Shown: positions 100 to 56,439, counted from the whole stretch's first letter. The stretch is DNA of 62,382 nucleotides, filler included, from 13 parts of 13 records of this genome joined end to end with filler, not necessarily neighbours in it, one strand, 5' to 3'. The notes: generated from the sequence alone by a model not told the origin. A program made the numbers and translations.

Positions 100-1384
100 T
101 TAAGTACGCCCAACCGCAAAGGGCTCCTTATCAAACCCGTGCACTAGCTTGAACAGGATCGCCTTGTGCGCGTGCAGCCGGTTCTCGGCCTGGTCGAAAA
201 CGATGCTCTTCGGCCCGTCGATCACAGACGCGGTCTGTTCCATCCCGCGGGCGGCCGGCAGGCAGTTCATAAAGATCGAGTCCGGGTGCGTCAGCGCCAT
301 CAGTTCGTCGTTGACCTGCCCCCCAACTGACCCCCCACGGCCAACCCGGGCGCCTGGTACGGCATGAACGTCTGCTTGCGCGCCTCCATCTGCTCGTTGT
401 CAATACCGTAGCTCATCCATGAGTCACAATAAACCACGTCAACCCCTGCCCCGCCCGCTGCCCCAGCGCCCCCAGCCCGGCACCGCTGACAGCTTCCCGC
501 GGGTCGCCGACGATCTCGAAAGAGCCGGCGCCCTGCGTGTCAGCTGCGAGGTTGTCACACTCTCGGATGACGGCCGGCTCAACGTCATACCCCTCGCCAG
601 ACGGCCCACACACGTTGATGTGGAAGCCCGTGGACACCGCCGCCCGCATCAGGTCGTAGGTCACATTGTTGGCCACATCCCCCAGGAAGGCCATCTGTCC
701 GAACTCGCACGGCCGGCGCCGGACCGCACCTTGATCCCTGCCAGCCCACCTGCACCCGGCCGAGTGAGCACAAAGCGCCCCCCCCCCGCGCACCCTTGGC
801 CTCGACGATCGCCTGCATATCGGCCACCATCTGCCCCCGGCTCGCGCCGGCCGCCCGGGCCGGCCGCCTGGGTGGGGTGAGCGAAGTCGTCGAGTCCGTT
901 GATGGTCGGGACCGTGGCGTGCTCGGCGAGCTCGGCCACATCTTGCCGGCTGTTGAGCCGGGCCATGATCACGTCCACGTACCGGCTGAGCACTCGGGCC
1001 GTGTCGGCGATCGTCTCCTTCTTCCCGAGCGGGGCTTTAGCGTCGATGGGGTAGTTGATCGCATTCCCTCCCATCTGTGAGCCCGGCTGGCGCTGGCCCG
1101 GGGGCGGGCGGTGCCTGGGTCATCCCGACCTGGAACGAGACGGAGGTCCGGAGCGACGGTTTCTGGAACAGCATGATTAGGCTCTTGAGCTGCATGGCAT
1201 CCGCGTACGCCTCGGGGTTGGCCTTCAGGTCGGCGGCACAGCGGAGCGTCTCCTGGATCTCCCACGGCGAGAAGTCCGAGATTTTGGTCAGGTGCCGCAG
1301 CCCCGCCTCGCTGCTCATCAGCCGCCCCGCGCAACCCAGAGCCGGCCTCGCCGTGCGCAGAGCGGCGCCCCCGAGGCTGTGCAT
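100..1384 (-). CDS. OTC: Ornithine carbamoyltransferase with probable mitochondrial presequence; 7 exons
   Basis: Spliced exons 1384-1115, 1074-868, 830-794, 749-730, 694-484, 445-354 and 315-100 give 350 aa. Motifs [48 protein letters not shown]-terminus is Arg/Ala-rich and free of acidic residues. Confidence 0.93.
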
Positions 1385-1402
1385 AGTTGAACTGGATGGC
1401 AG

Positions 1403-1431
1403 TTTATTCCGGATTTTTTTATTCCGGATTT
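1403..1431. promoter_or_regulatory. Duplicated motif TTTATTCCGGATTT in a putative bidirectional promoter
   Basis: 14-nt direct repeat at 1403-1416 and 1418-1431, inside the 87-bp gap between divergent ATGs at 1384 and 1472. Confidence 0.4.
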
Positions 1432-1471
1432 ACTTGTGACGTACTGACTGCCGAGACCCGCTGGCAGCGCG

Positions 1472-1774
1472 ATGGTGGACCAGCAGCAGGGGGCGGCGAC
1501 CGCCGAGCAGATCCAGCTGCAGCTGCGGCGGGCGGCGGTGCGGCGCCGCGGGTTTGTGCGCAAAGTCAGCCGAGAGGGGCTGGTGTTCCTCCCGCTGCTG
1601 CTGCTGATCCTGACCGTCGCGCATCATATTGTAGGCAGATCTCATCCAGATACTCCATTTCATCCTGCAACCTCTTCGGCTCGTCGATGTCCTGCGTGGA
1701 TGCAATCAAATTGTACTCGCACTGAATGGGCTGCGTACCGTCTTCATGGGGCCAGCTGTGGAAACTGGCTTTAA
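1472..1774 (+). CDS. Hypothetical small single-pass membrane protein
   Basis: GC-rich ATG-started ORF divergent from OTC, with one hydrophobic stretch (LVFLPLLLLILTVA); followed by AT-rich intergenic DNA. Confidence 0.45.
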   Translation: MVDQQQGAATAEQIQLQLRRAAVRRRGFVRKVSREGLVFLPLLLLILTVAHHIVGRSHPDTPFHPATSSARRCPAWMQSNCTRTEWAAYRLHGASCGNWL

Positions 1775-2171
1775 GTCCTCAGCACCATCACTACGTATGA
1801 TCGAGCCAGTGGCCACATGCTGTGGAATTTGCCATTGGTAATAAGAAATATGTGATAGGATAATTCTCTTGCTCAGCATGCAGCTCTCCCGGCCGCTTCA
1901 AAGTCAGTTTCAACAGGATGTGCGATAAAGTTGACCATGCTGCTGGGATAGTATACCTGGCACAAATCGTGAGAACAACAACGAATTGGCGCGAATAGCT
2001 CGTCAACCTTCGATATTTTACATCCTACGTTCTAAAGAATGAACATGTGCATATGAAACACGATCGGGCTTTCATTAGTTCCCTCCATATGGGATTGACA
2101 TGGGAGTCTAATGACTGATGCCTAACTGATGCCTAAATAATCGATCAGTTGTCATTGAACAATGACGTCAA

Positions 2172-3408
2172 CTACAGATTGAGCTCTGAAATCTGCTCGG
2201 TCGCAGCCTTGACTTTTTTCGTCCCAGGGGAGTCTGGAAAGCACTGCGGTTCGAGATGGGGCGACTTTCGCTTCTCCTTGGTCACGCTCGCATCGTCTCC
2301 TTCACCACACGCAGGGCGCAACTGCGGCGAAATCGGCCCAGAAGCCGCCGCCTGCCCCGCGTCAGCCGTGCAGGGAGCCCAGCGCACGCTGGCGTTCAGC
2401 TCCCACTCATACATCCTAAGCGCTTCCATCAGCCCCTTGCCGTCTCCTCCGACGCTCTCGAGATCTCCCCCGCCGATATTAACCAAAGGCCGTTGGGCAG
2501 TTAGAGCCTCAAGGGCCGCGTCCAAACTCTTGGCGCTCTCTTGCAGGAACATCAAGTACGCCGCGCATATGCAGGCCGACCTGCCCTAGCCTGAGCCGGC
2601 CCAGCTCGCGGGCTAGCCTTCGAATCCCAGTCCCACAGCAAACCAAGACGTTAGACTTGCCAAACCGATGTCCCCGGCCCACAAAATCGACGCAGCTATC
2701 TATATGTGGAAGCACTTCATTGGTCGGACCCAGCATCACCTGTGCCGGCTATTCCGGCCGCGGCCGACTCGGCCGGCATCACCTGTTTGTACTCGACTCC
2801 ATCCGTCGACCAAAGCATGTCCACCTCGTCCGAGAAAAGGGTTCTGTAAACCGACAGAAGACCGGATCAGCCAACAGCCGACGGCGCCGCGCGCGGAGGA
2901 GGGCACAGAATTTTGCGAATCTTGTGGAAGGCGAGCACGAATCGACTCTCTGTTGCCGAGACGGTGCCGATGAACAAGCCGCCTTGATCGGCGGTAGACG
3001 CCTCGTCAGGGGTTCGGATCTTCTGAAGCGAAGTCTCCCGCTGGAGCTCCTGCCACCGCCGTGTCAGCCGGTGGCTGGCAGCTCGATGCCCACCGCAGTG
3101 ACAGCCTCTCGCAGCCTAGCCGGGTCGCAGCCCGAGGCTTCACCAGCCTGTGCGACAGCCTCAGTAGGGTGGGCGGGCCGGGACACCTCAGCCCAGCTGT
3201 CGACGGCGGAGGCAACCACGTCCTTGGCGGTCTTGGCGAACCGGTGGATGGCCTCCACCGTGCTGAGGTGGCTCAGAGGCCCGGCAAAGGGTGGCGGCCA
3301 CCTCTGGAGTTTGTCGAGCGGCCATCCTTCGAACTCGTACTCGGCATCGTAAGGGGGCAGCGGAGGGGGCGGTTCGGTCGGCGGTCTCGGAACGTTGTCT
3401 CCTCCCAT
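2172..3408 (-). CDS. Atypical dual-specificity phosphatase; 6 exons
   Basis: After removing five introns (including 3148-3186, 2740-2782 and 2581-2617) it reads GGLFIGT...HKIRKIL...NVLVCCGTGIRRSACICAAYLM...LDAALEALTAQRP...GLMEALRMYE. This is the DSP fold with CX5R. Confidence 0.8.
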
Positions 3409-3960
3409 GCTCTCTGGCGGCTGCTCGGCGCAACCGGCACGCCTGTTCCCTGTGGCTGCAGCTGCTCTCTTAGAATCGGACGGCTCACAACCCCCGGCCC
3501 GACAGCCTGAAGCCTGCTGCTGATGAGTCAAGGCTGAGTTAAATGGTTGCGATGCGCATGCCGTGCCTGTGCCGCACCTCAGTTCCAGATAAAGAAACTC
3601 GAGTGACATGCTTCTAAATCATCGTATCAGGATCCACATGCGTCACCTAGGCTGTTTAGAACCAGTTAGTGCCGGCGGTGGAATTTTTTTTATTTCAATT
3701 GAATCCTAGTCGTTGGAAAGAAGAATAGGTTTTCTCTGGCCGAGGGAATAATGCGTACAGCTGGATATGGCGTGAGCAATCGGCCACGAAAACTGTTCTG
3801 TCAGTGATCGGGCTGCGGTGGGGGGCGGTCCACAGACAAGAGCATGGTGCGCCCGATTGCCCTGTCCCACCTACGCCCCACTAGTCTGGTGCAGCCGAAT
3901 CCAGTGAGCCAAATTGCCGTTACAGCGGAACAACGGCACGTTCTGTGGAGCCTCCCGACC

Positions 3961-4933
3961 ATGGCCGCGGCGCAGGGCCAATCGCAGCGTCAGCTGATCA
4001 CCCTGCGGGGCTCCGTCCAGGCAGGCTGCCCTCCCGCGCCCGCTCAGCCCGGGCAGGTGGTCACGGAGTTCTTCGGGTACGCGATCAACTCGATCCTCTA
4101 CCAGCGCGGTGCCGGCCCCCTGGGCCCCCACCAGCCCCGGCAGGCATATACCCGCCAGAGGACTTCCAGGCTGTCCAAAAGTGCTGGCGGGCGCGCACCG
4201 AGCGGCTCACCGGCCGGGCAGGTACGGGCTCTCGATGCTGGTCACTTGCGACGATGGGCTGCGTCAGTACCTCGGGCAAGTGCTCACACAGCTCTCGGGT
4301 GGTCGCCCAGCCGGCGGTGGGCCGATCCCGGGGGGTAGAGTGGCTGCTGGCGGGCTCGGTGCGCAACCTGGTGATCGCCATCTGCGACGTCGAGACAGGC
4401 GACTGTCTCCGATGGGCGGTGTGCGACAGGGCAGGTGCAGGCGAGTCGCTAGAACGCTGGGAGTTCAAAATTGAGACGGACCAGAAGGCAGCCGGCAGGT
4501 GGGCGGGGCAGGCGGGGCCGGGGGCGAGCGGGGCGCAGCGAGACGGGAGTGGAGCACGACGAATCGCGTATGACTTCTGAGATCCAAGCCATCATCAGAC
4601 AGGCCGGCTGCCTCGCGGGTCGGGTCGAGTGGGGGCGCAGATCACGGCGAGCGTGACCTTCCTGCCGCTGCTATCCACGCCGTGCACGTTTGACCTGCTG
4701 GTGTACACAGACAAGACGGTGGCCAGTGTCGCGGGAGTGGCGATTTGAGTCGAGCTCTCAGGTGGAGATACCTGAGGCCTGGGAGGAAAGCGACCCACGG
4801 TACATCGCACAGAACGCCGAGGTCCGGCTCCGCTCCTTCACCACCAAGGTGCCGTTGGAGGAAGGGGGGGGGGGAGTGCGGGGGGCAGATTCACAAGATC
4901 GATGCGGCTGTTTCGTTCAAATCGGAGGATTGA
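3961..4933 (+). CDS. MAD2: Spindle checkpoint protein MAD2 (HORMA); 10 exons
   Basis: Introns 4021-4056, 4109-4143, 4181-4221, 4299-4338, 4399-4440, 4499-4538, 4603-4640, 4719-4761 and 4849-4888 leave 618 nt = 205 aa. Motifs ITLRGS, EFFGYAINSILYQRGIYP, ERWEF, EIQAIIRQITASVTFLP, WEESDP, VRLRSFTTKIHK. Confidence 0.97.
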
Positions 4934-5292
4934 TACCGAGCAGGAGGCGATTAGAGGTTTTAAAATTAAGCCGCGAGTTTGGGGTGCTGGGGAGCGGCTG
5001 CTGCCTGCATGGCTGTCTGCCAGTTGGTGGGCGGTGCACAAAGAGGATGATTCATATGTAATCTAAATCATAAATAAATGCAAGTACATTAGCTCAGTCT
5101 CTATAAACCTGAGCAGCCATGCCGTCACGGTGAACGTACAAATCTACCCATCTGCAACAAATGAATTGGGAATTTTAATAAGAATAAAGGACTAGACAAT
5201 CGTCAGAACCCGATCAATGTCAGCTGCGCCTTATCTACAGCCCACGTGCGTGCATTTACGGGGGGCGAGCCCGCCGCACCGCGCCCGAGCGG

Positions 5293-5551
5293 TCATCTCA
5301 GCCGGCCCGATCCGCTATACGCCCGATTGAGCACCTCTGCCCGCCGCTGGCTGCGGGCCGGCTGGGCTTGCCACCGTGAAATCCGACCTCGGGATCCGGC
5401 CGGTACCCCAACGGCCCCGGCCGGGGGATGTTGCTGCCCACCCGTCCGCCCGCCCCCCCGGCCGGCCCGCACCGTGGCCGCATAGGAATCGCGCCGGCTG
5501 GCACTTCCCTCGGGTGCCTGCGGCCGCTCAGCAGGCCCCGGTAGGGGGGGG
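5293..5551 (-). CDS. 3' fragment of an unknown intron-containing gene
   Basis: Very GC-rich, with intron-like GT/GC...GGGCAG segments; tentative spliced peptide ...NIPRPGPLGYRPDPEVGFHEVLNRAYSGSGRLR*. Truncated by the linker. Confidence 0.35.
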
Positions 5552-5651
5552 NNNNNNNNNNNNNNNNNNNNNNNNNNNNNNNNNNNNNNNNNNNNTTAAT
5601 TAATTAANNNNNNNNNNNNNNNNNNNNNNNNNNNNNNNNNNNNNNNNNNNN
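5552..5651. other. Artificial contig linker (44N-TTAATTAATTAA-44N), first of 12
   Basis: Identical 100-nt all-frame-stop spacers at 5552-5651, 11959-12058, 16497-16596, 20378-20477, 24715-24814, 28603-28702, 32787-32886, 38707-38806, 45279-45378, 48419-48518, 53197-53296 and 56711-56810. Genes are truncated at them, so adjacency across them is meaningless. Confidence 0.98.
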
Positions 5652-8600
5652 CACCAAACCAAGCCCTGGCTATGGAAGTTTCCAATAGCTTGTCAGCTGT
5701 CAGTACCGTGAGCAGCCTGGACAGCAGTGAGCTTGCGATAGTGTTTGACCAGGATCGCACAGCCCTGCAGGCGGCACTCTCCTGGCTGATAAGCCAGAGG
5801 CACACCCGTTGGGTCAAGCTTATCGAGCCGACTGTGCTTCACAGCAGCTATGCCCGTTGGATATCGCAGACCAACATTCGAAATGAGATGCCTTACTGGG
5901 ACGCCAGTCTGGATGGGCGAGAGATTGGCAATGGCATAAATCAAAAGGCGGCTGGAGAAGTGATTGTGACGGCTGACACTGGGCTCGACTGGGGAAATTG
6001 CCTGATGTTCGATCAAGCAACCGATCCAGCCCTCTTCGACAGCAAATTGCCCGAGGGGGCTTCTTTCCCAGTCCCGGATAAGACCAGTGGCCATAGGAAG
6101 ATCTTGGCCTATTGGGGTTACATGGACAAAGTTGACGTGCCGGATGGCCATGGCACACACGCCGTTGGAGTTGCAATCGGTGACTCCGGAGGGTATGGTC
6201 CAGCTGAGCTAAGCCAATTCTCTGGGTTGGCTAAAGGGGCCAAGGTTTTATTTATGGATGCTTCCTGTTCGACAGCTGGAGGGTGCGACTGCAGTACCTG
6301 CTCGTGTGCAGGACAAGGTTTCCCATGGTGCGCTGAGCGGGTGAACGGCGTGTGTGTTGATGCCGGATGGACATGCCTGCCAGACGAGAAGGGTAAAAGG
6401 TTGGTTCTACCGACCTTTTTCACCAGCGGGCCGTATTTGTGGGCCAAAGAGACGAAGGCTTCGGTGATCTTGCACACTTGGGGCAGCACGACCGCCTCCA
6501 AGGCATACAACGTGGAGAGCGAAGAGATCGACAAATTCTTGTGGGAGAACCCATACACTGTGTCGGTGATTGCAGCCGGCGACATGGGGACAACGGATGG
6601 TTGGAGCAGCATCAGCGGGGTGAGTTTCTCTAAGAACGCGATTGTCGTAGGAGCAAGCCACACTTCGGGCGAAGCTTACATGCAAGCGATGTCCAGGTTC
6701 ACTGAAGCGGACAACAAGCCCGACTCTGTGATGCTCGGCCGGCTTGAGCAAGCCAGAGAACTGCTCATACAAGAGCACTGCTCCTGTGACGCGCTCAGCG
6801 ACAATGTAACTACTGAAATACTTGTACTCCGACAACCAACATGCAGCAGCTCCGACTGTATTGCCGCAAAAGCGCTCAACACTCTCGATGCTTGTTGCAA
6901 CACCAAATTCAAGCTGCTGTGCTGTCCTGGCGCCCAGGCCAGCTATGCTGATTCGGGCGACTATACGCTCGACAACGTGGCGGCCTCGTCGTCTCGAGGG
7001 CCTGTGACAGGCGGGCACACGGTTCCGATGCTGGTGGCCCCGGGACTGATTTCTTCGGCACGAGCACGAGCACCCAGCACCGAGTGCAGCTCGTTCTCCG
7101 ATTCTGGATACTCAATTGTTGCCCGAGAGGGCACTTCTGTAGCAGCTGCGCATGTCTCTGGCCTGGTGACTATCATCAGACAGTACTTTAGGAATGGGTT
7201 CTATCCAACCAAAATGAGAAACATTGGCACCTTCCCCGCTCCAAGACACCGAAGGCGGGTTGCAGGTTTGAATGGCTGGACGCAAGGTGATGATTTCGAC
7301 CCGCCGTCGTCGCTGGTCAAGGCTATGCTCATGCTCTGCTCGGATCCTCTGCGAGGAAGTGTGCAGACCGAACGGTTCACAACCCGGGGCTCGACCCTGC
7401 CTCTAGCGCTGACTGAGCAGGCCGAGCAGGGATGGGGTCGACCCCAGCTGGACAGATGTCTCCCAATGCTCCCTCCTAGGCACCCACCGGAGTTCAGATT
7501 GCTTACAGAGATAATCCGCGACTCTGAGAATACCCGACGTAGCGACGACGACATCCAAGACTTCTCCACTGGGCTGCTGCCCAAGCTTAGCCTCGGGCAT
7601 ACCTACCAGCTCTGCTTCGAGGTGCTCGATCCGGCCCAGGGCCTGCGAGTCGGCATAGCCTGGTTGGACTACCCAGCCGGCGTCGGTGCTCACGCCAGTG
7701 CGCTAACTCTGGTAAACGATCTCGATCTGCGGCTCTCTGGGGGGCCAGGCGGCACTCGGCTTGGTAACGAGCTGGCCAGGCCAGGCCCTGTGGGCACAAT
7801 CGAGCAGCTGCCGGACCGGAACAACAACTGGGAGCAGATCCGAATTCCGGCTGGAGACCTGCACCTAGGCAGCCGATTCCGGCTGCAAGTGTCTGCACAC
7901 CGACTGGTGACTGCGGAGCAGGAGTTTGCCGTGGCAGTGCTCGGGAGCGTCAGGAACGGCACCTGCCCAGCCTGCATGGCCGGCGCAACCCAACCATGCA
8001 CTGTAGACGGGGGAGAGGGCACGCAGCAATGTAATACGCACTTGGGCGAATTTTATGAAGAATGCCAGGTGGTGTCCTGTCAGGCTAACTATGCACCAGG
8101 AGAGGAGGGAACGAGCTGCGTGAGCACTGCTGTGCTCACGCCTGCACCCACTGCGACCAGGGACGAGTGCGACCTCTGGATGGACTGGTGGTGCGGTGTC
8201 AGAGACAACTGGACCACGATAGCAATCGTCAGTGGCAGCGTTTTGTTTGTGGTAATAGCTGGATACGTGCTCTATAGGATTTTGCGGAACGCTTTCGACC
8301 CCAGTCTCAAACCGGCAGAGGCCTCGAGTGCGATCAGGCTGGCGCTCTCGGACTCGCTGCAAGAGAGCGTGATGCGGACAGGCCACGACGAAGCGCTGAT
8401 GCGGACCCACTTTGAGTTCAAGCAATTTGAGGAGATGGGTCGCGCGTTCAGGCTGTGGGCATTCGAGGACGCTGCCCTGAGCTACGAGCCGTTCAAGGAG
8501 CGGCGGTCGCAACGATGGGCCTTCATGATCTGGGCGGACGTGTGGGCGGAGGAGGTGGACCCAGAGAAACGGCGGGATCTCAGTGAATGCCAGTTCCAGT

Positions 8601-12700: not shown

Positions 12701-15235
12701 TCATAATAATACACAATTCTCCCTACACGCCACACAACCTCGAGCGGGCTGGGACACATTCCTCGAACTCACACCAACAGCCCGGAGCGTGGTCTTCTTC
12801 TCCAACTGCCACTTCTTGAGAGCCTCCTTGGCAGATAGTTCGGTCATGTCGATCTCGGACTCCTGTCATTCCACCAAAGTCAGTGCAACACCCAAGCAGC
12901 GCAAGCCACCTCGACCCAACATGACTGGAGTGCATCAAACCGCTTCTCCCTCTCCACCAGCTTGTCTCTGAATCGAACCTTGTACATCCTGTTCAGCGCG
13001 CCACGCGCCGATCGGTCTGGCGACTGAGAGGACGCCCCGATCGCCGACCTCGCCGACCGCGCTTGTGACATGTAGATATCAACTCGGTCACAGCCTCTTA
13101 CTGACCGCATCGCTTCACTCTCGCACTCGTCTTCAACGCACTCTAGCCAGGGGGTCTGCAAGCCCAGCTCAGTTGGAGCACGCACCGAGCAAGTACCTCA
13201 AGGCACATCATGTGCAAGAGCTGAGGCTCGGACCACAGCACTGTTTCAAACCGCTCGAACGAGACCATCAACTCCTGGTGGGCGCTCGGAGGGGAGTCCG
13301 GGTAGCACACCAGCGCCAGCTTGGTCAGCACGTTCTGAAAGCACGCCTCTTTGGCCTGAACACTGTCCGGACTCATGCTGAGCAGCGCTCTGAGCAGCTG
13401 CTGGACTGCTTCGGACGGCAGCTTGGCCTGCTGAGCGATTCTGTGACGAGTGCGGTGGTCGCTCTTGCGCCACTTGTTCAGCTGATCACCCGAACCGCCG
13501 ACTTGTCCGAACGGGTCCAGAAAGAAAGCAAAGCACAGCCAGCACTGCAGCCGAGTACAATCACGCAAGTGGGGAGCAGACCGACCTTGTCGCGGATAGG
13601 CATTGCACACAGGAGTGCCAGCGCCGTGCACAGGTGACTGCTCCATTCTTGCAGGTGCATGCTGCTCATTCCGCAAAGCCCGCCCGAACCTGCAGAGCCA
13701 GTCAGCTCGCCCTGACTATCTTAAACGGACGCACAGTAATTGAACTTGTCCCAGAATGAATCCGACACACTCGTGGCCGGCACCTTACCCTGCGAGTGCA
13801 TCCTGGCTTGCTCGGCCATATAACGGTAGAACATCCGCCGCCGGTCGCCTGCCCGGGTCTCAGCGAGGCCTTTGGCCACCATTCTACCGGATTCGGCGGC
13901 ACTCTTCTGCGGCAGACACTGGTGCATTTTCTCTAGCACGGAAACGGGCAGCCTGATCAGCCCAGCGCAAAGACTCAGATGCCGGTGCACGAGCACACTA
14001 TGCGCAGTGAGCGCCCGTTCGGCGGGCTCGATCGGGTTTGGGGTCGGCACCGCGCTCTCCTGGCTGATTAGATGACTCTCAAAGCTGGTTCCAAAGCTCT
14101 GGCTCGAAGCATTGGCCAGCCCCGTGCACAGCGCCCGGTAGACGCCCGCGGCCGGGCTTGCCCACCAGGAGGCCTGCTTCAAGTAGCTCTGCGGTCGGGC
14201 CCCGTCTGTCTGTAGCTGGCGGGACCGGCTGACAGCACTGAGTAGCTCGCCTCTGCAGGTTTCGAGCAAAGCGAGCACGCACGCCCGCTGACTCGACTGC
14301 CGGGCCTGGGCCTGCGGGTGGACTACGATCGAGTAGTGGTCAACTAGGAGCGCATGCCAGAGCGCGCAGGTGACGTCCAGCGGGACTTTGGTCACGGTGG
14401 CCGAAGAGAGCAGCTGAGGCAGCAGAAGCTGCAGCGCCAGCTCGACTGGCTCCCTCTGCCGCGGTTGATCAGCATCGACCAGCTCGTCATCCGCAAGCAT
14501 CCGGCGGGCGGCCTCAATAAGAGGCTCGCTCGCCGCGATGAAATCGTTGGCAGCGCTCATGCTAGGATACGGCGGCTGCCCCGCGCAGAACACTTGCTCA
14601 ACTAGCGTGCACAGTACACGGAACGCCGCCGCGTCGGCCTCCGGAAGCAGCTTGAGCAGCAACGTGCCAATCAGCTCCAGCCCGCGGTAGTACCCAACCG
14701 CCGCCTCAGTCTCCCGGCTGCGTAGCACGTAGCACCCGAGCAGCGTCCGCAGCCGGCCGACCAACTCGGTACTCCTCTCAGAGGCGAGCACATCCAGGTC
14801 CTTGAGCGACACGGCCATCTGCTCTAGGTCGAGCTCGATCTCCTCCAGCTCCTGGCTCGGCCCGCCGCTGGCTTCCCGCTGGTACCGCGCCCGGAGCTGC
14901 TGATAGTAGCCTATCCAGGCAGGATCTAGCCCCGAAGCCCACTGCCGGGCCATCCCACGGTAACGGATCAGCCGCCCGACCGGGTCATCGGGGCTGGCCG
15001 GTGGATCCCCGGTGGAGCTCACCGGGTCTGACCGGGTGGTCGTGGTGCCGGCCCAGCTGGCCTCGGTGGGTGCCGGGCCGGGCCGGGCGGCCGGTGGGGG
15101 GCTGCTCTCCCCCAGCGTGAGCGGGCTGCTGAACGCGCTCGAGTCCGGCTCGGCCCCGGCGCTCTTCTGGCGGCTCTCGAGCGACATGTTCTCGTCGCGG
15201 AGCCGGAGCGCGTGGAATGGCGTAGGAGTCGCCAT
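12701..15235 (-). CDS. TBC/Rab-GAP-like protein with EF-hand-like and chromo-like regions and C-terminal CAAX
   Basis: TBC motifs IELDLEQ, LRTLLGCY, VGYYRGL, AFRVLCTLVE. Four GT-AG introns (~13690-13734, ~13546-13586, ~13156-13196, ~12863-12909) extend the frame to ...RGCVACRENCVLL*. Confidence 0.75.
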
Positions 15236-16596: not shown

Positions 16597-16848
16597 GGGG
16601 GGGGGGGGGCACTCGGACTGCCCCCATTGACGGCGGCTCGAGGATCAGGTTGTGCACGGTGCCGGAGACGAGCACAAAGTAGGCTAGAAACGCCAGCGCG
16701 GCCCAGGTCATCGGGCCTGCCCCCCGGCGGCTCGGCCGGCCGCGGGGGGGCGGCGCCAACCGGGCAGGTACAGCCGGGGCTGGCGGAGCTTCAGTCTCGG
16801 CGGGCGCAGCATCCCGACCGCCCAGGGCGCCTCAAACAGCGCGGCCAT
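16597..16848 (-). CDS. OSTC: Oligosaccharyltransferase subunit OSTC/DC2, 3' partial
   Basis: With intron 16717-16760 removed it reads MAALFEAPWAVGMLRPPRLKLRQPRLYLPGPMTWAALAFLAYFVLVSGTVHNLILEPPSMG, matching the DC2 pattern (P.LKL..P...P..MT...SYF....G...D.I.EPPS.G). Confidence 0.85.
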
Positions 16849-22256: not shown

Positions 22257-23465
22257 ATGGGCCTCGCGCTGTGCGTGGCACTGCTGGTGGCAGCCGCGGC
22301 GGCCGCAGGCCCGATCCTGCCGGTGTGGGTGGACTGTGACAACGCGGCGGGGATCAGCGGGGTGCGCGACCCGGACGACGCGCTGGCGCTTGCCCTGCTG
22401 ATCCACTCGCCGCAGATCGAGCTGACTGGGGTGTCCGCCGTGTTCGGCAACGCACCGGTCGATCGCTCAGCCACGGCCACACGTCGTCTGCTAGAGACCG
22501 CTGGGGCTGGGCATCTGGCAGTCACCACCGGGGCGGCCTCGCCCTCGGACGGTGCAGGCGCGGCCGCTGCGGCCGCTGCGATGGCCTCAGAGCTCGCTCG
22601 GCGCAGTGGCGTGACCATCTTGGCGCTGGGTCCGCTCACAAACGTGGCCGCGTTGCTGAGCAGCCACCCCGAGACCCGTGTCACCCAGATCGTCTGGGTG
22701 GGTGGTCGCAGGTGCGCCCGGGGCCGGTGCTGCTGACCGCTGCGGTGCCAGGCCTGGCCAGCAGTTCCGGATAGGCTCGCACAACCGCCAGACCGTGGCC
22801 GAGTAAGTGCCTGGCCATTCGGCCGCGCTGACCGGTAGGTTAGTATGAACTTTGAAAAAGACGCAGCAGCAGCTGCCCTTGTGCTCAAAGTGTGCTCCGA
22901 GCAACAGATTGGCCTGATCCTCGCACCGTTTGAACTCTCCTCTAAGATTGAGCTGCGGCAGGCGGATCTGGACGCAATCCGGGGCGCTCAGAGCCCTCTG
23001 ACTGACTTGTTGGCTGAGTACGCTCAGCCGTGGCTAGAATTTTGGCACCGGACCTGGCGAGTGGACTTCTTCCATCCGTTCGACTGCCTGGCTGTCCTGT
23101 ACCTTATATCGCCCGAGCTAATCGAATGTGCCCCCTCAAACGCCCGGATTATACGGTCTCGATCTGATGATGTTATCATGGGAGTTGCCAACCGTGATGA
23201 GGGCGACTCAAGCTTGCACGGATTTGGGTCGGCAACCAAACTGTATCTGGAAGTCGATCTAGGGCAATCGGCCGAATCGTCAGAACAGGACCAACGGTGG
23301 CTCAGGTATTGCTACGACGTGGATTTGAAACAGGCGCATGGTCTGCTACTATCTCGGCTCGCGGAAACTCTCTCACCAAATTGGAACGATGCCAGCCAAA
23401 CTAACATTATAGCTAGAGCTAAAGCGCGCGAAAATGATAGAGCAAAGGACAGCCTTGACCTATAA
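22257..23465 (+). CDS. Secreted inosine-uridine-preferring nucleoside hydrolase; 3 exons
   Basis: Signal peptide MGLALCVALLVAAAAAAG; motifs DCD...DPDD, VFGN, LALGPLTNVA, DMNFEKD, FHPFD. Introns 22712-22751 and ~22803-22843. Confidence 0.9.
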
Positions 23466-42020: not shown

Positions 42021-42100
42021 AGCTTGTATTTAATTATAGTGTATACATACAATAGTTTACATCACTGTGCGCGTGCAAGTTACGTGCAAGTGAGAATTGT

Positions 42101-45727: not shown

Positions 45728-48418
45728 TTATGAGAACAGCGAGGTTAACTTCGATCCTAGACTGCCCATCACCCCCTTCTTCTCGTCATCGTCATCCAGC
45801 TCGCCAGGCCCCTTAGAGATTACCTGCACGCCTCATCAACCACGATCCTATACCTATGCCATCACCGTCGTGTACTGCTCGAGCGTCCGGAGCCGCTCGA
45901 GTGTGGACCGGTGCAGTTCTTGCTGCTGCTCATTCAGATCAAGCCGCAGCACCGAATTCTCCGCCAGCAGCTCAAAGCACAAGTTGTACCCGACCAGTGG
46001 CAGCCCAACTGCCACTTGAGCGTCCCACTGTCGCTTCAGATCAGCGATCGAGCCCTTGATGCTATTGATCTCCTCAGTGCTCATCTGCCAAAGCCCAGTC
46101 AGCCCTGGCAGCGGACGAGTAGACTACCTCAAGCAGTCGCTCCATTGGCGCCTTCTCCTTCTTCTTGCCTTCCTGCTTGGTCAGCATGTCGAAGGAGCTC
46201 TTCCCCAGTCGCCGCCAAAGCTGGTGCGAGTCTCGGAGCAGGTTCAGGCACTTCTCTACGTCCTGCTCAGTCGGCGGCCGGTCCTTGACCCCAATTGGCT
46301 CGCGGTAGAAGCTCTGCTCCACGCCGGGGCGGGGCGTCTCTGCGTCAGATGGCACCATGTCTGACAGCTGGCTCACAAAGTTGGCCACACCGATCGATAG
46401 TCTCCTCACCTGCCCACAGTCAGTCCGGGCCTGCCTGGCTGTGGGCACCCGGGTCCTGGGAGTGACCATGTCGCCATCCCGCGGCGTCTGCGGAGGGTTG
46501 GGTACTCCTACCGCCTCCTCGCGAGTCGCCTGCAGCCCTGCCTCCTCCATCGCGCTCCGCCTCTTGGCTTCGATCGCCGCCCGCAGGTTGTTCACCTGTC
46601 ACTCCAGTCAGCCGGCCAACGCTCACAGCCGGCGCCTGCTGCATCACGTCGGCGGTGTCGCCCACAAACTCGAGTAGCGAGTTACCCACCACGATCGCTT
46701 CATTGAACCCGACCTCAAACCCCGACAGCTGCCTGGACTTGGCAATCACGTGGTCCAGCCGCCCATTCGACTGCTCCGACGCCCTTTCAACTGACAGCGC
46801 AGGGTCTGCATCGAGAAGCGTATCCATCCGGGAGAAGCGCATTATGTCATACAGTTCCGCTACCTGCCACAGAAGCGTGAGACCGGCTTTGGTCGAGGGG
46901 TGCACCGCGTTGACAACGGCGATCAAGTCGTTGAGCTGGGTGCGCGCATCCACCACACTATCCAGAACCTGCAGCCGGTCAGGGCATGAATCAACTGGCT
47001 CGACCTGCACTGGCGTGGCTGGGCGCGAGATTGAGTGGTTGCCCAGCTGAATCGGCGTCGCCGGTCGAGAGTGTCGCCCAGCAGGCCACGGTACAGGCGA
47101 GCCCGACACCGGCGTGGACGGCCTGCTCCTCCGCAAGCTGTTGATTGGCGTGAGTGGCATCACGTCCGAGTTCTCGCCCGCATCAGTCCGGGCTGTCACG
47201 GGTGTGCTTGGGCGGGAGTTGGGCCGCGACTTGTTCTCCGTGCTCCCTCCGATTGAGTAATCGCTCTCAGGATCGAAATAGAGCTGCAGCTGCCCGAGCT
47301 GCCCGAGCACGGACCTGTTGGCCTCCTGCGACGCCAGGATCTCCTCTTCGACCTGCACCCGTCGCGTGAGCCTGCCTCGCCCGGCCCCAGCCCACCGTGT
47401 TGTACATATGTCGGCCCGAAGGGTCCCGGACCCGCCAGTCTGCTATGCACTTCATGATCTTACTCAGCGCCTTCTTGTAGAGCTGGGCTGCTTGGATCGT
47501 CGATTTGAGCGAAGAGTCCTCTTTCGGCTCCAGGGAGAAGCTCGCCGCGGCTGCTTGCTCGCCAGCTGCCCCCCAAGCTCGCGCCGAGCCCGGAGTCGAG
47601 CGGACCTAGCCACACGTCGCCGTACTCGTCCATGTTCTCGCTATATTCCTCCAAGTAGCGCTGCTGGGCCTCGGAGGAGCCCGTCATGTACTGTGCGGAC
47701 ATGACCACCATGGACATCTGCTCATGTAGCTGCTCCGGGAACTGGGTCGCTACTCGGTTCACGATGTACAGCGAGGTCGACAGGTCCAACGCGTCCTCTA
47801 TACGCTCGATCTTTGTGTTATACCCCTTGGGCGCGTAGATCAGGTCCTCCGCGTACAGATCCAGCCCCCGCATGTGCTCTCTGATCACCGCGTTCGCCTG
47901 TGCCCCTGATCAGGCTGAGCTGCAGGTTTGGACGAGACCTCTGGCACCCAGCTCTCACGAGTCCTAAGTTGCTCGCCTGCCGCCATCGCCTCCAGGCACT
48001 GTGCCGACATCCTCAGCACGTGCACCACCTGCCCCGCAGCTCGACCGGCCCAGCACGCAGCCGCTGCCTGCTTGGAGACAGTGAGGCTGGCCTCTTCCTC
48101 CGGGAGTAGGCGCTCTGGATCTCGCAAGAACGGACAGAACAGCCTGCGCATTATGAAGCTGCAGAGCACTTGCTTGCACTGGCGCGGGTGCAGCTGGACC
48201 ATCGTCTGGTGGATCAAGAATGCCAAGTATTGCAGCACTTCGGGCGCTTCGTTCACTGAGTCACAGATCAGCGTGAGCACTCGTCTGACCAGATGCATCG
48301 CGTTCGCCACTGCCTTGGCCATTCCGTCCTCCGAGTCGGGGGCCTCGAGTTCCATTGTGCCGTCCTGCTCTATCGCCAGCTGCAAAGCCGGTCCTAGAAC
48401 CTCCACTATGTATTGCTC
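45728..48418 (-). CDS. RasGAP-like domain protein with coiled-coil C-terminus, 5' partial
   Basis: LTLICDSVNEAPEVLQYLA...SFIMRRLFCPFLRDPE resembles the RasGAP FLRFxCPAIxxP signature. Several tiny introns lead to ...GSKLTSLFS*. Confidence 0.65.
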
Positions 48419-53759: not shown

Positions 53760-54137
53760 TCAGCTCGCGCCGTCGCTGCCTGGGCGCCCGGAGCAGCCAA
53801 ATCTTCCCCAAGGCCGGGGCCGTCCCATCGGCCCCAGACACTCGCCCAGCGGTAGAACCGCGCTGGATTCGAGCGACGTGCACGAGCCGTCTTCTGAGGA
53901 GAAGAACGACCGGCTCAGGTGGGTCTCGTTGCACTGGTCCAGGATGTCGGCGCGGCCCCACTGCTGGTCGCCGGGGAACAGGCGTGGGGGAGAAAAGCAC
54001 TTGTCGAGAGGCAGCAGGTAGCTCTTGGGGTCGTTGCCGTCAGAGCACTTGCCTTCTGGCCCATAGAGCGTCATATTGACAGCTCCTCGGCTGCTGCCTG
54101 CCACCCCCGCCACCAGCACCAACGTCGCCAGGTTCAT
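53760..54137 (-). CDS. Small secreted Cys-containing protein (125 aa)
   Basis: Signal peptide MNLATLVLVAGVAG; six Cys; divergent from PGAM5. Confidence 0.6.
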   Translation of the reverse strand: MNLATLVLVAGVAGSSRGAVNMTLYGPEGKCSDGNDPKSYLLPLDKCFSPPRLFPGDQQWGRADILDQCNETHLSRSFFSSEDGSCTSLESSAVLPLGECLGPMGRPRPWGRFGCSGRPGSDGAS

Positions 54138-54312
54138 CGCTGCCCGAGGCAGACCTGCGCACCGGGTCGGCCCAGCGGCCGCGAACTTGCCCACGCAGTC
54201 CATTGGCCCGCAGGCGAAGTAGCACGTATCACCCAGCTGCAGTGGCCTGGACGACACGACAAACTGAACGGCAGCTGAACTCTGCAGCTGCCGGCTCGTA
54301 GCCGAGGCACGA

Positions 54313-55426
54313 ATGGCCAGGTACCTCGTGAGCAGACTCCCGGCGGCGGTGGCGGCGGTGGTCTCGGGCCCGGCGCTGCAGTGCAACGATTCGCAGTCCG
54401 GCTGGCCGGCTTGGGACGAGAATTGGGACGGTCGGGCCGGAAACAGCTCGGAAAACCCGTCGGGACCCACCCGGCACCTACTGCTGATCCGACACGGACA
54501 GTACGACCGAACAGACAGCCGGCGGCAGCTCACCGCTATGGGGGTCAAGCAGGCCCGGCTCACCGGTTTGTTCGAGCCTGGCCGGCCGGGGAGCGGTGGG
54601 GCAGGCGAGCGGCTGGCTGGAATGTGCGATCCCGAGCTCCTCGGCAAGCTGTCGGCCGAGCCGGATGGGCTGTCGGCTGAGCCGGTCACGATCAGCTGCG
54701 TGTATAGCAGGCGCTCCGCCGGTCGGCTGTCGGCTGAGCTCGGGTCAGCAACCTGCTTCGAGCCCGGCAGACCGCAGAGCTGGTGATGGAGTCGCTTCCC
54801 CGCACGGTGCGGCTGGCCCCCGAGGACCCGATGCTGGCCGAGGGCTGCCCGTGCGTCCCGGACCCGTCCCCAGCGCTGTACGATCCATCTCCGGCCACTG
54901 TCTGGGAAGATGCGGCCCGGATAGAGGCAGCATTTCGGCGATACGTCCACAGAGCGGTCAGCAGCCGCTGCCCGGCGGAGTTATTGCTCTGCAGGTGGAC
55001 GGCCACTCGGCCCAGATCCCGGTCAGCGCAGTCCAAGCTCAGGCCGAGGTGTGCTCCCAGGTTGGGCCGGCCGAGTGCGTGCAGGGGGCCCAGGACCGGC
55101 CAGAGTATGAGGAAGGAGCCGACGGGGCCAGCGGCAGCGAGAGTTGGGAGGTTATTGTGTGTCACGGGAACGTGATCCGGTAGCTAGCTGGCCAGCCGGC
55201 CAGCGATTGGGAGCGGGCAGCTACTTTGTGTGCCGAGCGCTTCAGCTACCGCCGCAGGCCAGCAGCCCAGATACCCGGCCACTGATCTGTGCGATAGGTC
55301 TGGCTTCGCATGGCAACTTACAACTGCGGGATCACCCATCTGATGATTCGACCCAATGGGCGCTGCTCGCTGGTCACTTTTGGCGACACTGGGCACCTTT
55401 CTCTGGACCAAACCACCTACTTTTGA
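54313..55426 (+). CDS. PGAM5: Mitochondrial histidine phosphatase PGAM5
   Basis: WDENWDGR (WDxNWD), [61 protein letters not shown]. Introns include 54566-54604, 54711-54748 and 55258-55297. Confidence 0.93.
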
Positions 55427-56026
55427 TCATGCAGGCCGAGGCTCAAAGTTTGAGTGCATGTAAACTACTCGTACTGGTTGACCATTCATATTATAATTCA
55501 TACATATTTGGTAATATTTAGGTCAAAATGGCGTGCCAATCGATATCAATATTTAGGCCAAAGCGATCGATAGAATGTGGGATCGTTACTGACGGCGGAC
55601 TCCGGTTTGATTGATTAGCGTACAGTTATGATCAAGACTTAGTACGTAGTCCGAACTGATTTGATTCTCATCCACTCATGTTTATTAAGATTGTGAAGCA
55701 CTCTCGGCGGTGACTGGACTTCTCACCACTGACAGCGCCCACATAGACCGCAGCCATAGCAGCCCACCGCAGCCACCCCAACATTATAAGTAAGACCCCC
55801 TGAGTGATCGGCTCCCTGTCGCAGCCAGCCTGACAGAATCGACAGCCTTTGTCGCCCCATCCGGACGATAATGAGACTAAGCAGCAGCCAGCGGCTGCAT
55901 ATATGTACTTCTATTGTTGCGTTGTTATGCATCATTCTCCCCTCCCCCCGTGACGGCGTCACGTCACCGGCGCCGCCCGCCCCCGCTCATGACGGCCGGC
56001 GCTGGCTTCCTCGAAAGAAAAGGCCT

Positions 56027-56439
56027 CTAGGCCTTCTCTGCCCTGAGCTGCTCTACTTCTTTCTCCAGCATGGCCACCTCTTCCTTGAGCCGGGTGATCT
56101 CCCGATCCTGTTCGTCGATGGTCTGCACCCCCGCTCGCACCCAGCCGCGCCCCAGCCGCACCTGCTTCATCGACTCTGGGTCGACGGCCACCGAAGCACC
56201 CAGGTACTGCTTGATGAAGTCGAGCGCTTGGGCTGGCCTCTCAGGCTCCTCGTACATCCGAACGAGCACTGGGCCGCCGCTCAGCCAAGCCCAGCCGCCC
56301 GACACCTTTGGTGAAAGCGTCGATAACCCCGCATTGCTGGAGGTAGGTTCTGAACTCTTCCTTCTTTGAGTCGGTGGTCTGCCGCCGGCAACCGCTCAGC
56401 CAAACCCGCCCGGCCGCGCACTTGGTAGCCCCCGGACAT
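56027..56439 (-). CDS. MYCBP: c-Myc-binding protein homolog; 4 exons
   Basis: Spliced (introns 56379-56421, 56269-56305, 56123-56161): DSKKEEFRTYL...GVIDAFTKVLVRMYEEPERP..ALDFIKQYLG. Confidence 0.92.

What the first reader, a model, noticed from the sequence alone, without database searches (positions are those of the whole stretch)
316..56421. Tiny introns containing only two adenines: branch point possibly defined by A-exclusion, no polypyrimidine tract
Seen: many 35-45-nt introns contain exactly two A residues, one ~11-18 nt from the 3' end and the A of the acceptor AG. Examples: OTC 316-353, 446-483, 750-793, 831-867; MAD2 4603-4640 (GCCGGCTGCCTCGCGGGTCGGGTCGAGTGGGGGCGCAG); OSTC 16717-16760; nucleoside hydrolase 22712-22751; PGAM5 54711-54748; all three MYCBP introns. 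The context of the internal A is very degenerate (CTCAC, CTGAG, GCGAG, TCGAG, GTCAG, GGCAG), and the 3' end is usually G-rich (GGGGCAG). Known: canonical U2 introns use a YURAY-like branch site paired with U2 snRNA and a U2AF65-bound pyrimidine tract. Inference: this lineage may mark the branch point by position and A-depletion, implying a divergent U2AF/SF1/U2 recognition system.
Basis: partly seen in the sequence, partly recalled or inferred. Interest (0 to 1): 0.8.

Follow-up and report, generated by a model that had tools for sequence, protein, structure and literature searches.

The report
Minimal GC-rich introns keeping two adenines
These are real but ordinary spliceosomal introns of 35-44 bases lying in very GC-rich gene regions, where almost the only adenines left are the two that splicing needs, so they show where the branch point sits but not a new splicing system.

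Summary
Observation confirmed. All 11 cited introns have exactly two A on the sense strand. In the six named genes I curated 25 introns (15 fixed by homology): 35-44 nt, 17 GT and 8 GC donors, 11 of 25 with exactly two A. All 25 have an A at -18..-11 from the 3' end (shuffles give 11.3; 0 of 20000 reach 25).

Interpretation only partly supported. The A-poverty is mostly local composition. Intron cores (A 6.6%, G 52.6%) match four-fold codon sites of the host genes (A 7.4%, G 47.7%). Intron GC tracks local GC3 (rho 0.78) and falls from 0.83 to about 0.45 along one gene. Less GC-rich introns of the same window carry a canonical CTRAY (GCTGAY) branch motif at the same distance (10 of 22; 0.5 expected). 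The context in the GC-rich introns is not very degenerate: Y at -2 in 19 of 22, Y at +2 in 22 of 22.

There is no polypyrimidine tract (31% pyrimidines at -10..-4). A modest A-specific extra deficit remains (3.4% against 7.4%, p=0.014), which fits selection against decoy adenines.

No RNA data or genome were available, so splicing, lariats and U2, U2AF and SF1 are untested. Best reading: minimal U2-type introns under GC pressure.

The parts
1075..1114 (-). OTC intron 1, 40 nt, GC donor, 5 A (internal A at -38, -20, -14 and -4)
   Evidence: (homology-fixed)
831..867 (-). OTC intron 2, 37 nt, GC donor, 2 A (internal A at -12)
750..793 (-). OTC intron 3, 44 nt, GT donor, 2 A (internal A at -16, CTCAC context)
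695..729 (-).
446..483 (-). OTC intron 5, 38 nt, GT donor, 2 A (internal A at -14)
316..353 (-). OTC intron 6, 38 nt, GC donor, 2 A (internal A at -13)
4021..4056 (+). MAD2 intron 1, 36 nt, GC donor, 3 A
   Evidence: (38 of 38 references)
4109..4143 (+). MAD2 intron 2, 35 nt, GT donor, 3 A, C-rich
   Evidence: (38 of 38)
4181..4221 (+). MAD2 intron 3, 41 nt, GT donor, 4 A (CTCAC with A at -13)
   Evidence: (38 of 38)
4299..4338 (+). MAD2 intron 4, 40 nt, GT donor, 3 A
   Evidence: (38 of 38)
4399..4440 (+). MAD2 intron 5, 42 nt, GC donor, 6 A, in frame
   Evidence: (36 of 38)
4499..4538 (+). MAD2 intron 6, 40 nt, GT donor, 3 A
   Evidence: (26 of 38; lies in a variable protein region)
4603..4640 (+).
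   Evidence: (38 of 38)
4719..4761 (+). MAD2 intron 8, 43 nt, GT donor, 6 A
   Evidence: (32 of 38)
4849..4888 (+). MAD2 intron 9, 40 nt, GT donor, 5 A
   Evidence: (36 of 38)
56379..56421 (-). MYCBP/FAP174 intron 1, 43 nt, GT donor, 2 A (CTGAG with A at -18)
   Evidence: reading-frame logic
56269..56305 (-). MYCBP/FAP174 intron 2, 37 nt, GT donor, 2 A (CTGAG with A at -13)
   Evidence: the flanking exons match chain 7som_T at residues 2-24 and 26-56
56123..56161 (-). MYCBP/FAP174 intron 3, 39 nt, GT donor, 2 A, in frame
   Evidence: top codon score; protein comparison from recall only
16717..16760 (-). OSTC intron, 44 nt, GT donor, 2 A (internal A at -16)
   Evidence: downstream exon matches OSTC residues 31-62; the upstream exon found no match
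22712..22751 (+). Nucleoside hydrolase intron 1, 40 nt, GT donor, 2 A (CTGAC with A at -16)
22803..22843 (+). Nucleoside hydrolase intron 2, 41 nt, GTAAGT donor, 6 A (CTGAC with A at -13)
54566..54604 (+). PGAM5 intron, 39 nt, GT donor, 3 A, in frame
   Evidence: protein comparison from recall only
54711..54748 (+).
   Evidence: the downstream exon matches PGAM5 chain 3mxo_A at residues 63-128
55180..55220 (+). PGAM5 intron, 41 nt, GT donor, 7 A
55258..55297 (+). PGAM5 intron, 40 nt, GC donor, 9 A (CTGAT with A at -13)
57725..57765 (+). Contig-13 EF-hand gene, first intron, 41 nt, GC 0.83, 4 A; start of the 5'-to-3' GC decline
59751..59793 (+). Contig-13 gene intron, 43 nt, GC 0.51, 10 A, GCTGAC with A at -16
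61693..61735 (+). Contig-13 gene intron, 43 nt, CTGAT with A at -16; removal restores an EF-hand loop
46085..46127 (-). Contig-10 RasGAP-like gene intron, 43 nt, GCTGAC with A at -15
   Evidence: frame-switch logic only
13690..13730 (-). Contig-3 TBC gene intron, 41 nt, GCTGAC with A at -13
   Evidence: frame-switch logic only; near-tied alternatives exist

Best explanation
The pieces are conventional major-spliceosome (U2-type) GT-AG and GC-AG introns near the lower length limit (35-44 nt). They are probably recognised across the intron.

They lie in gene regions, often 5' parts, where weakly selected sites have been driven to about 80-85% G+C and about 7% A. Intron cores share that composition. 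In a 38-nt intron few or no adenines are then left except the two that splicing cannot lose: the branch-point A, held 11-18 nt upstream of the 3' splice site, and the A of the terminal YAG.

The branch site has a lineage consensus, about GCTGA(Y)YG. It is plain in less GC-rich introns of the same contigs and genes. In the GC-rich ones it is eroded to G-S-Y-S-A-G-Y.

There is no polypyrimidine tract. The spacer from branch point to 3' splice site is G-rich or G/T-rich. The acceptor is most likely taken as the first YAG lying more than about 9 nt downstream of the branch point.

A further two-fold shortage of non-branch adenines probably reflects selection against decoy branch points or cryptic AGs in so small an intron.

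Shown: the introns, their composition, the positioned A, the motif, and the missing pyrimidine tract. Inferred: that the positioned A is the branch point, the way the acceptor is chosen, and the selection against extra A.
For: Introns are real: (15 homology-fixed); for gene identities and one MYCBP junction.

Positioned A: 25 of 25 at -18..-11, 0 of 20000 shuffles; independent subset 14 of 14, 7 of 20000.

Composition is the local neutral composition. Intron cores A .066, C .290, G .526, T .118 (n=544); four-fold sites A .074, C .351, G .477, T .098 (n=325). Intron-core GC against GC3 of +/-40 codons: Spearman 0.78, p=3e-7, n=31. Within the contig-13 gene both decline with position (rho -0.75 and -0.79).

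Canonical motif: CTRAY with its A at -18..-11 in 10 of 22 introns with core GC below 0.75 (0.52 expected), and T at -2 and G at -1 in 9 of 9 single-A cases. In the 22 single-A introns of the named genes: Y at -2 in 19 of 22, Y at +2 in 22 of 22, G at -4 in 16 of 22.

No pyrimidine tract: 55 of 175 pyrimidines at -10..-4.

Not U12-like: none of 25 donor hexamers resembles the U12 donor (the U12 consensus is recalled).

Extra A deficit: 18 of 526 against 24 of 325, p=0.014. Exactly-two-A introns: 11 of 25 against about 1.9 expected.

Literature, passages read: GC-AG introns are abundant in GC-rich picoalgae (PMC3033335). Missing pyrimidine tracts and fixed branch-to-AG distances occur in several protists and fungi, and ACTGAC in Ostreococcus (PMC2483917).
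Against: - No RNA-seq or lariat data, so neither splicing nor the branch nucleotide is shown (one search listed no run).
- In the GC-rich class CTRAY itself is present in only 1 of 24. The base after the A is mostly G (16 of 22), which by recalled U2-branch pairing rules would pair poorly. So recognition in these introns may lean on something other than U2 pairing.
- Intron A, once the positioned A is removed, is lower than at four-fold sites. The number of two-A introns far exceeds the simple expectation, so composition alone does not explain everything.
- 10 of the 25 introns rest on frame logic plus partial or recalled homology.
- Four-fold sites are only a proxy for neutrality.
Confidence: 0.7

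Rival explanations
1. The spliceosome of this lineage picks the branch point by position and by its being the only adenine available. Extra adenines are excluded by selection. Recognition by U2, SF1 and U2AF is divergent, with no pairing consensus and no pyrimidine tract.
For: Non-branch A is 3.4% against 7.4% at four-fold sites (p=0.014), while T is not depleted. 11 of 25 introns have no other A against about 1.9 expected. CTRAY occurs in only 1 of 24 GC-rich introns. Pyrimidines are 31% at -10..-4. Donor hexamers are weak, of the GTGCSS or GCNNNN kind.
Against: The same window, and the same genes (NH, PGAM5), hold introns with 5-14 A and a clear GCTGAY at the same distance. A content changes continuously with local GC3, not in two classes. 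The context of the lone A carries information at -4, -2 and +2. The two-A pattern fits 42 acceptors, of which 11 are supported introns, so it cannot define introns by itself. The machinery could not be inspected.
Confidence: 0.17
2. The pieces are not spliced. They are translated insertions, assembly or sequencing errors, or sites of programmed frameshifting in GC-rich low-complexity DNA.
For: No RNA evidence. 4 of the 25 are multiples of three and open in frame. The assembly is fragmentary, 13 contigs of 3-6.5 kb.
Against: 21 of 25 would shift the frame. All 25 have G[T/C]...YAG ends. Removal gives gap-free alignment to homologues at 15 junctions. The positioned A would be unexplained.
Confidence: 0.04
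3. They are copies of a recently spread introner-like element family, and the shared features come from common descent.
For: Two MYCBP introns share a 12-nt word around the internal A. Introner elements are known in GC-rich picoalgae (listing of PMC4540971; title and abstract start only).
Against: The longest common substrings among the 25 introns equal those of composition-preserving shuffles: maximum 12 against 11.8, pairs of 9 or more 16 against 16.3, pairs of 10 or more 3 against 6.2.
Confidence: 0.03
4. They are structure-defined, non-conventional introns in which GC-rich pairing brings the ends together, as in euglenids.
For: Very GC-rich sequence folds strongly in absolute terms, -6.5 to -28.8 kcal/mol.
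Against: Folding is no stronger than in shuffles: mean z -0.27, p=0.27, 1 of 25 below -2. The borders are canonical GT/GC-AG.
Confidence: 0.02

Closest known systems
Human G-rich ultra-short introns, 37-65 nt (Shimada et al. 2015, PMC4463651, passages read; Sasaki-Haraguchi et al. 2012, cited there, not read)
   Same: Same length range. G is the commonest base. Predicted 5' splice site, branch site and 3' splice site are weak, and most lack a pyrimidine tract.
   Different: In human they are a handful of exceptions. Here they are the regular introns of GC-rich genes, a third have GC donors, and the branch A is readable directly from the sequence. Whether the human G-rich enhancer motif matters here was not tested.
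GC-AG-rich intron sets of GC-rich picoalgae: Aureococcus anophagefferens 39.6% and Micromonas pusilla 22.2% GC-AG (Iwata and Gotoh 2011, PMC3033335, passages read)
   Same: High-GC genome with an unusually large share of GC donors (8 of 25 here) and a large information deficit in the splice signals.
   Different: The passages I read do not describe intron A content or branch position. Its Additional file 1 (supplement) was not seen. The organism of this window is unknown.
Constrained 3' intron structures without a pyrimidine tract in protists and fungi, and the ACTGAC branch motif of Ostreococcus lucimarinus (Irimia and Roy 2008, PMC2483917, passages read)
   Same: A CTGAC-type branch motif, a narrow branch-to-AG distance, no polypyrimidine tract, and a preferred purine at -4 before CAG.
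   Different: There the strict signals go with intron-poor genomes and longer introns (O. lucimarinus branch to AG about 20-35 nt). Here the genes are intron-dense (9 introns in about 1 kb), the distance is 11-18 nt, and the motif erodes with GC content.
15-nt introns of heterotrich ciliates with a highly conserved branch adenosine: Stentor and Fabrea (PMC9004412, passage read)
   Same: Minimal introns in which a positionally fixed A is the main internal signal.
   Different: The ciliate introns are much shorter. That they are AT-rich is recalled, not read. There the fixed A does not arise from A-poverty.
[quoted passage not shown] 2021, PMC8363638; listing and abstract start only)
   Same: A known way for the major spliceosome to handle short introns that lack a usable pyrimidine tract.
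   Different: Nothing here shows which factor is used. No splicing-factor gene lies in the window.

Membership tests
U2-type (major) spliceosomal intron | GT or GC at the 5' end and AG at the 3' end | tested here: met
   25 of 25: 17 GT and 8 GC, with YAG in all (22 C and 3 T at -3)
U2-type (major) spliceosomal intron | Removal restores a reading frame colinear with homologous proteins | tested here: met
   15 of 25 by alignment or HMM. One more junction by PDB residue contiguity. The remaining 9 rest on frame logic with partial or recalled homology.
U2-type (major) spliceosomal intron | Branch-point adenosine a short distance upstream of the 3' splice site | tested here: inconclusive
   An A at -18..-11 in 25 of 25, far above shuffles. 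That it is the branch nucleotide needs lariat data, which were not available.
U2-type (major) spliceosomal intron | Branch-site consensus of the yUnAy or CTRAY type | tested here: inconclusive
   Met in 10 of 22 less GC-rich introns. Met in only 1 of 24 GC-rich ones, which keep Y at -2 (19 of 22) but mostly have G at +1.
U2-type (major) spliceosomal intron | Polypyrimidine tract between branch point and 3' splice site (metazoan and plant type) | tested here: not met
   31% pyrimidines and 65% G at -10..-4. This feature is absent in many fungi and protists (PMC2483917), so it does not define the family as a whole.
U2-type (major) spliceosomal intron | Spliced out of the RNA | not testable with these tools
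   No RNA run was listed.
U12-type (minor) intron | Highly conserved extended donor and branch boxes (consensus recalled) | tested here: not met
   None of the 25 donor hexamers printed resembles it. The branch contexts do not either.
Introner-like element family | Sequence similarity among copies beyond composition | tested here: not met
   Longest-common-substring statistics equal those of shuffles.
Structure-defined non-conventional introns (euglenid type) | Stable pairing of the intron ends and non-canonical borders | tested here: not met
   Mean folding z -0.27. Borders are canonical.
G-rich ultra-short introns as described in human | Length of 65 nt or less, G the commonest base, weak core signals | tested here: met
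   Lengths 35-44. G is 50-53% of the cores. Donor hexamers are weak. This is a likeness of form, not common descent.

The most novel reading that the evidence does not exclude
In this lineage the major spliceosome accepts almost any adenine lying 11-18 nt upstream of a YAG, with minimal help from U2 pairing and none from a pyrimidine tract. Minimal introns are therefore under selection to purge every other adenine. A-exclusion would then be a selected part of intron identity, not only a by-product of GC pressure. It would go with altered or missing SF1 and U2AF65 function, for instance an SPF45-like route used for all introns.
Probability: 0.2. Interest if true: 0.65.

Novelty: new member of a known kind. 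Interest (0 to 1): 0.35.

Why it matters
GC pressure has here acted like a natural saturation mutagenesis. Almost every dispensable A and T has been replaced, and the surviving adenines mark the branch point and the acceptor without any lariat experiment. That gives a clean in-silico read-out of the distance from branch point to 3' splice site (11-18 nt), of the minimal intron (35-44 nt), and of how little sequence a major-spliceosome intron can carry.

It also offers a tractable test of whether decoy adenines are selected against. And it shows that gene finders for such genomes must allow GC donors, tiny introns and no pyrimidine tract. It does not, on present evidence, call for a new splicing mechanism.

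Tried and rejected
- RNA evidence: the look-up of sequencing runs on 1-10000 listed no RNA holder.
- Whole genome: none is held, so U2 snRNA, U2AF65, U2AF35 and SF1 could not be inspected. Rfam at gathering thresholds found nothing in the window.
- Earlier notes on this genome: none.
- Ab initio exon chaining with a codon model gave unstable, over-predicted introns because codon bias is weak. I dropped it in favour of homology and frame logic.
Exon-level Pfam was too insensitive for short exons and found nothing for several lineage-specific genes.
- First MAD2 homologue search found nothing. A second, with another exon, worked.
- The metagenome scan for close OTC relatives gave only distant loci, at most 61% over part of the query, plus an 18-residue stretch at 78%. 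No orthologous introns could therefore be compared, and the loci were not used.
- The OSTC upstream exon found no PDB match.
- Rejected readings: the introner family and secondary structure.
- PGAM5 candidate 54957-54994 was left out of all counts as uncertain. The extra 1307-1444 'intron' that the spliced aligner proposed with P0001 in the unconserved N-terminus was dropped.
- Of the 14 aligner introns of the contig-13 gene, the two 3'-most were dropped. In one search one was replaced by 60851-60910 from frame logic.
- Literature: I found no paper describing two-adenine introns in searches. These cover only the full-text library held here.

Full report
WHAT THE WINDOW IS. The 62,382-base window is not one molecule. 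It is 13 contigs of about 3 to 6.5 kb joined by a spacer of 44 N, a 12-base all-frame stop linker and 44 N. G+C is 53-62% per 4 kb. No whole genome is held. No RNA run was listed. The genes are eukaryotic: subtilase, a BRK-domain protein, TBC, ankyrin, modular polyketide synthase, BCCIP and GH31; EF-hand, RasGAP and nucleoside hydrolase.

ARE THE CITED PIECES THERE, AND ARE THEY INTRONS? On the strand of each gene, the eight pieces cited by coordinates are 37-44-nt G[T/C]...AG strings with exactly two A. Half of them start with GC rather than GT.

For OTC (minus strand, contig 1) I found six interruptions. Removing them gives an open 350-aa frame that aligns without a gap at any of the six junctions to two relatives, P0001 and P0002. 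These are 76% and 69% identical over the 70-aa query exon and lie on contigs of 1146 and 1310 nt, that is, without introns. A protein-to-genome spliced aligner I wrote, which knows nothing of my hand choices, returns the same six with both references. With P0001 it adds one spurious call in the unconserved N-terminus, which I dropped.

For MAD2 (plus strand) I enumerated alternative borders. The nine-intron model I had chosen by eye is the best of 5400 combinations against an HMM built from 38 full-length MAD2 proteins, at 327 bits. The spliced aligner recovers the nine with 38, 38, 38, 38, 36, 26, 38, 32 and 36 of 38 references.

Gene identities of the others were checked against solved structures:
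- PGAM5: 3mxo_A, E=1.4e-10, ending exactly at the exon end.
- MYCBP/FAP174: chain 7som_T. The two exons flanking intron 2 match residues 2-24 and 26-56, with the split codon between them.
- OSTC: 6s7o_H residues 31-62. Its upstream exon found nothing.
- Nucleoside hydrolase: Pfam profile positions 1-154 and 162-259 on the two large exons.

This gives 25 introns in the six named genes. Fifteen are fixed by homology. Ten rest on frame logic with partial or recalled homology. One PGAM5 candidate, 54957-54994, was too uncertain and is left out of all counts.

THE OBSERVATION IN NUMBERS. The 25 introns are 35-44 nt long, with 17 GT and 8 GC donors. Their A counts are 2 (11 introns), 3 (6), 4 (1), 5 (2), 6 (3), 7 (1) and 9 (1). 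So 'exactly two adenines' holds for 11 of 25. In MAD2 it holds for 1 of 9.

Every one of the 25 has an A between -18 and -11, counting the last G as -1, with a peak at -13 and -14. Shuffling each intron core, keeping the first six and last three bases fixed, gives 11.3 +/- 2.3 introns with such an A. None of 20000 shuffles reaches 25. A scan over all 8-nt windows gives the same answer. T and C show no such placement.

The 3' end is G-rich. G is 65% at -10..-4 against 50% in the cores (p=6e-5). Pyrimidines are 31% against 43%, so there is no polypyrimidine tract. Position -3 is C in 22 and T in 3 of 25.

IS THE A-POVERTY MORE THAN LOCAL COMPOSITION? Mostly not. In OTC, MAD2 and MYCBP (18 introns) the intron cores are A 6.6%, C 29.0%, G 52.6%, T 11.8% (n=544). 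Four-fold degenerate sites of the same genes are A 7.4%, C 35.1%, G 47.7%, T 9.8% (n=325). Neither A nor T differs significantly. GC3 of these genes is 0.77-0.86.

Over 31 introns with known frames, intron-core GC follows the GC3 of the surrounding 80 codons (Spearman 0.78, p=3e-7). The contig-13 gene is aligned along 1262 residues to P0123, which is 42% identical. In it, intron GC falls from 0.83 at the 5' end to about 0.45, while A rises from 4 to 10-14 per intron. GC3 falls in parallel (rho -0.75 and -0.79 with position). In the nucleoside hydrolase, the first intron (GC 0.80, two A) sits by an exon of GC3 0.81. The second (GC 0.63, six A, GTAAGT donor) sits by an exon of GC3 0.56. None of the 21 introns curated outside the named genes has only two A. 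The two-A introns are thus the GC-extreme end of a continuum.

A residue remains. If one A per intron is set aside as the positioned one, the other core positions hold 18 A in 526 (3.4%) against 24 in 325 (7.4%) at four-fold sites (Fisher p=0.014). The ratio of A to T is 18:64 in introns against 24:32 at four-fold sites (p=0.014). With the four-fold A frequency, only about 1.9 of 25 introns should lack any further A. Eleven do.

Three caveats apply. Composition varies within genes, which over-disperses the counts. Four-fold sites are not strictly neutral.

IS THE BRANCH CONTEXT DEGENERATE? Less than it looks. I pooled 46 curated introns: the 25, plus 12 from frame-switch logic and 9 further ones from the contig-13 alignment, its two 3'-most predictions dropped.
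- The 22 with core GC below 0.75 carry CTRAY with its A at -18..-11 in 10 cases. That compares with 0.52 expected, and 0 of 3000 shuffles reach it. All 9 single-A cases have T at -2 and G at -1.
- The 24 GC-rich ones have CTRAY in only 1 case.
- The 22 introns of the named genes with a single A in the window still show G at -4 (16 of 22), a pyrimidine at -2 (19 of 22, p=4e-5), G or C at -1, G at +1 (16 of 22) and a pyrimidine at +2 (22 of 22, p=8e-9, although G is half the background).

The consensus is therefore about GCTGA(Y)YG. It erodes under GC pressure at -3 and -2 (T to C). At +1 it shifts from Y to G, which GC pressure does not explain. By the U2-branch pairing rules as I recall them, the eroded forms would pair poorly. 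That is inference.

Donors are weak too: GTGCSS or GCNNNN after an exon ending in AG (16 of 25 A at -2, 22 of 25 G at -1). An earlier, unchecked note of this scan (e1-560454) reports GTGCG(T/C) donors and ACTGAC branch boxes in Ostreococcus. I read the ACTGAC part in Irimia and Roy 2008. The likeness suggests, but does not show, a related green-algal splice grammar.

RIVALS TESTED.
- Secondary structure. The introns fold no better than shuffles: mean z -0.27, p=0.27, 1 of 25 below -2.
- Common descent (introner-like family). Longest shared words among the 25 equal those of shuffles: maximum 12 against 11.8, 16 pairs of 9 nt or more against 16.3. The 12-nt word shared by two MYCBP introns is within expectation.
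- U12-type. No donor hexamer fits (consensus recalled).
- Specificity of the pattern. Across both strands, 72 YAG sites have exactly one A in the 30 preceding bases. 29 of these A lie at -18..-11 against 19.2 expected (p=0.008). The same count for T is 15 of 69 against 18.4. 42 acceptors have a G[T/C] donor 35-44 nt upstream and exactly two A, yet only 11 are supported introns. The other 31 have their A scattered from -33 to -8. A-exclusion plus position therefore cannot by itself tell the cell what an intron is.

HOW IT MOST LIKELY WORKS. These are minimal U2-type introns recognised across the intron.
- The 5' splice site pairs weakly with U1, through the exon-end AG, G+1, T or C at +2, and mostly G at +3.
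- The branch adenosine lies 19-31 nt from the donor and 11-18 nt from the acceptor.
- The acceptor is the first YAG far enough downstream. In MAD2 intron 5 and NH intron 2, a YAG only 5-8 nt after the candidate branch A is passed over for the one 11-13 nt away. I read this by eye from the sequences, with frame and HMM support.
- With no pyrimidine tract, U2AF65-type binding is probably dispensable or replaced, as in many fungi and protists (PMC2483917) and in the SPF45-dependent human short introns (abstract only).

The positions, composition and motifs are shown. Branch usage, acceptor scanning and factor usage are inferred.

COMPARISON WITH WHAT IS KNOWN. The nearest described things are:
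- human G-rich ultra-short introns of 37-65 nt with near-zero scores for core signals (PMC4463651);
- the very high GC-AG share in GC-rich picoalgae (39.6% in Aureococcus and 22.2% in Micromonas pusilla; PMC3033335);
- constrained branch-to-AG distances without pyrimidine tracts, and the ACTGAC motif of Ostreococcus (PMC2483917);
- the conserved branch adenosine of 15-nt ciliate introns (PMC9004412).

I found no paper describing introns reduced to two adenines (searches, in this library only). The supplement tables of PMC3033335 were not seen.

The case is a new member of a known kind: minimal, GC-rich, GT/GC-AG introns without a pyrimidine tract. Its neat property is that GC pressure exposes the branch adenosine.

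VERDICT. Confidence in the ordinary reading is 0.7. Interest is 0.35. The boldest reading not excluded, selected A-exclusion with altered SF1 and U2AF use, has probability about 0.2.

Noticed in passing
window 5552-5651 and 11 further sites (11959, 16497, 20378, 24715, 28603, 32787, 38707, 45279, 48419, 53197, 56711): The window is a chain of 13 separate contigs joined by 44 N, a 12-base all-frame stop linker and 44 N. Features must not be read across these joints, and several genes (OSTC, PKS, subtilase) are cut by contig ends.
   Followed up: yes
window 316-56421 (25 curated introns): 8 of 25 introns have GC rather than GT donors, with no compensating strong donor consensus.
   Followed up: partly
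window 56980-61321 (+), contig-13 EF-hand gene: There is a strong 5'-to-3' decline of GC3 (0.85 to about 0.6) and of intron GC (0.83 to about 0.45) within one gene of 13-14 introns. The nucleoside hydrolase gene shows the same (GC3 0.81, then 0.56). This suggests a 5'-end GC gradient, for example biased gene conversion near promoters.
   Followed up: partly
window 316-1114 (-), 4021-4888 (+) against 5654-8860 (+): Intron density is very uneven. There are six introns in about 1.25 kb of OTC and nine in about 1 kb of MAD2, but none in a 3.2-kb subtilase frame or in the long PKS and GH31 frames.
   Followed up: no
the 22 single-A introns of the six named genes: The base two positions after the presumed branch A is a pyrimidine in 22 of 22 and never G, although G is half of the background. 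The base right after the A is G in 16 of 22. Neither is explained by GC pressure or by recalled U2 pairing rules.
   Followed up: partly
window 5434-5472 (-), 48029-48064 (-), 40822-40860 (-): These are further strings that fit the two-A pattern with the A at -12, -13 and -18, in genes not examined. They may be additional introns of this kind.
   Followed up: no
window 15066-15115 (+), upstream part of the ankyrin gene: A 44-50-nt GC-rich G[T/C]...CAG string with no internal A at all was proposed by the ab initio chaining. If it is a real intron, it would need a non-A branch. The frame is open through it, so it may simply be coding.
   Followed up: no
window 28705-32785 (-), contig 7: A modular type I polyketide synthase (KR, ACP, KS, ACP, KS domains) with GC3 of only 0.50-0.54. 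It holds a candidate AT-rich 55-nt intron at 30715-30769, the compositional opposite of the two-A introns.
   Followed up: no
window 38978-42017, contig 9: Two long, high-scoring open frames on opposite strands overlap at 40704-41224. The minus frame has a BCCIP domain only in its 3' part, and the plus frame scores 125 bits. The gene models there are unresolved.
   Followed up: no
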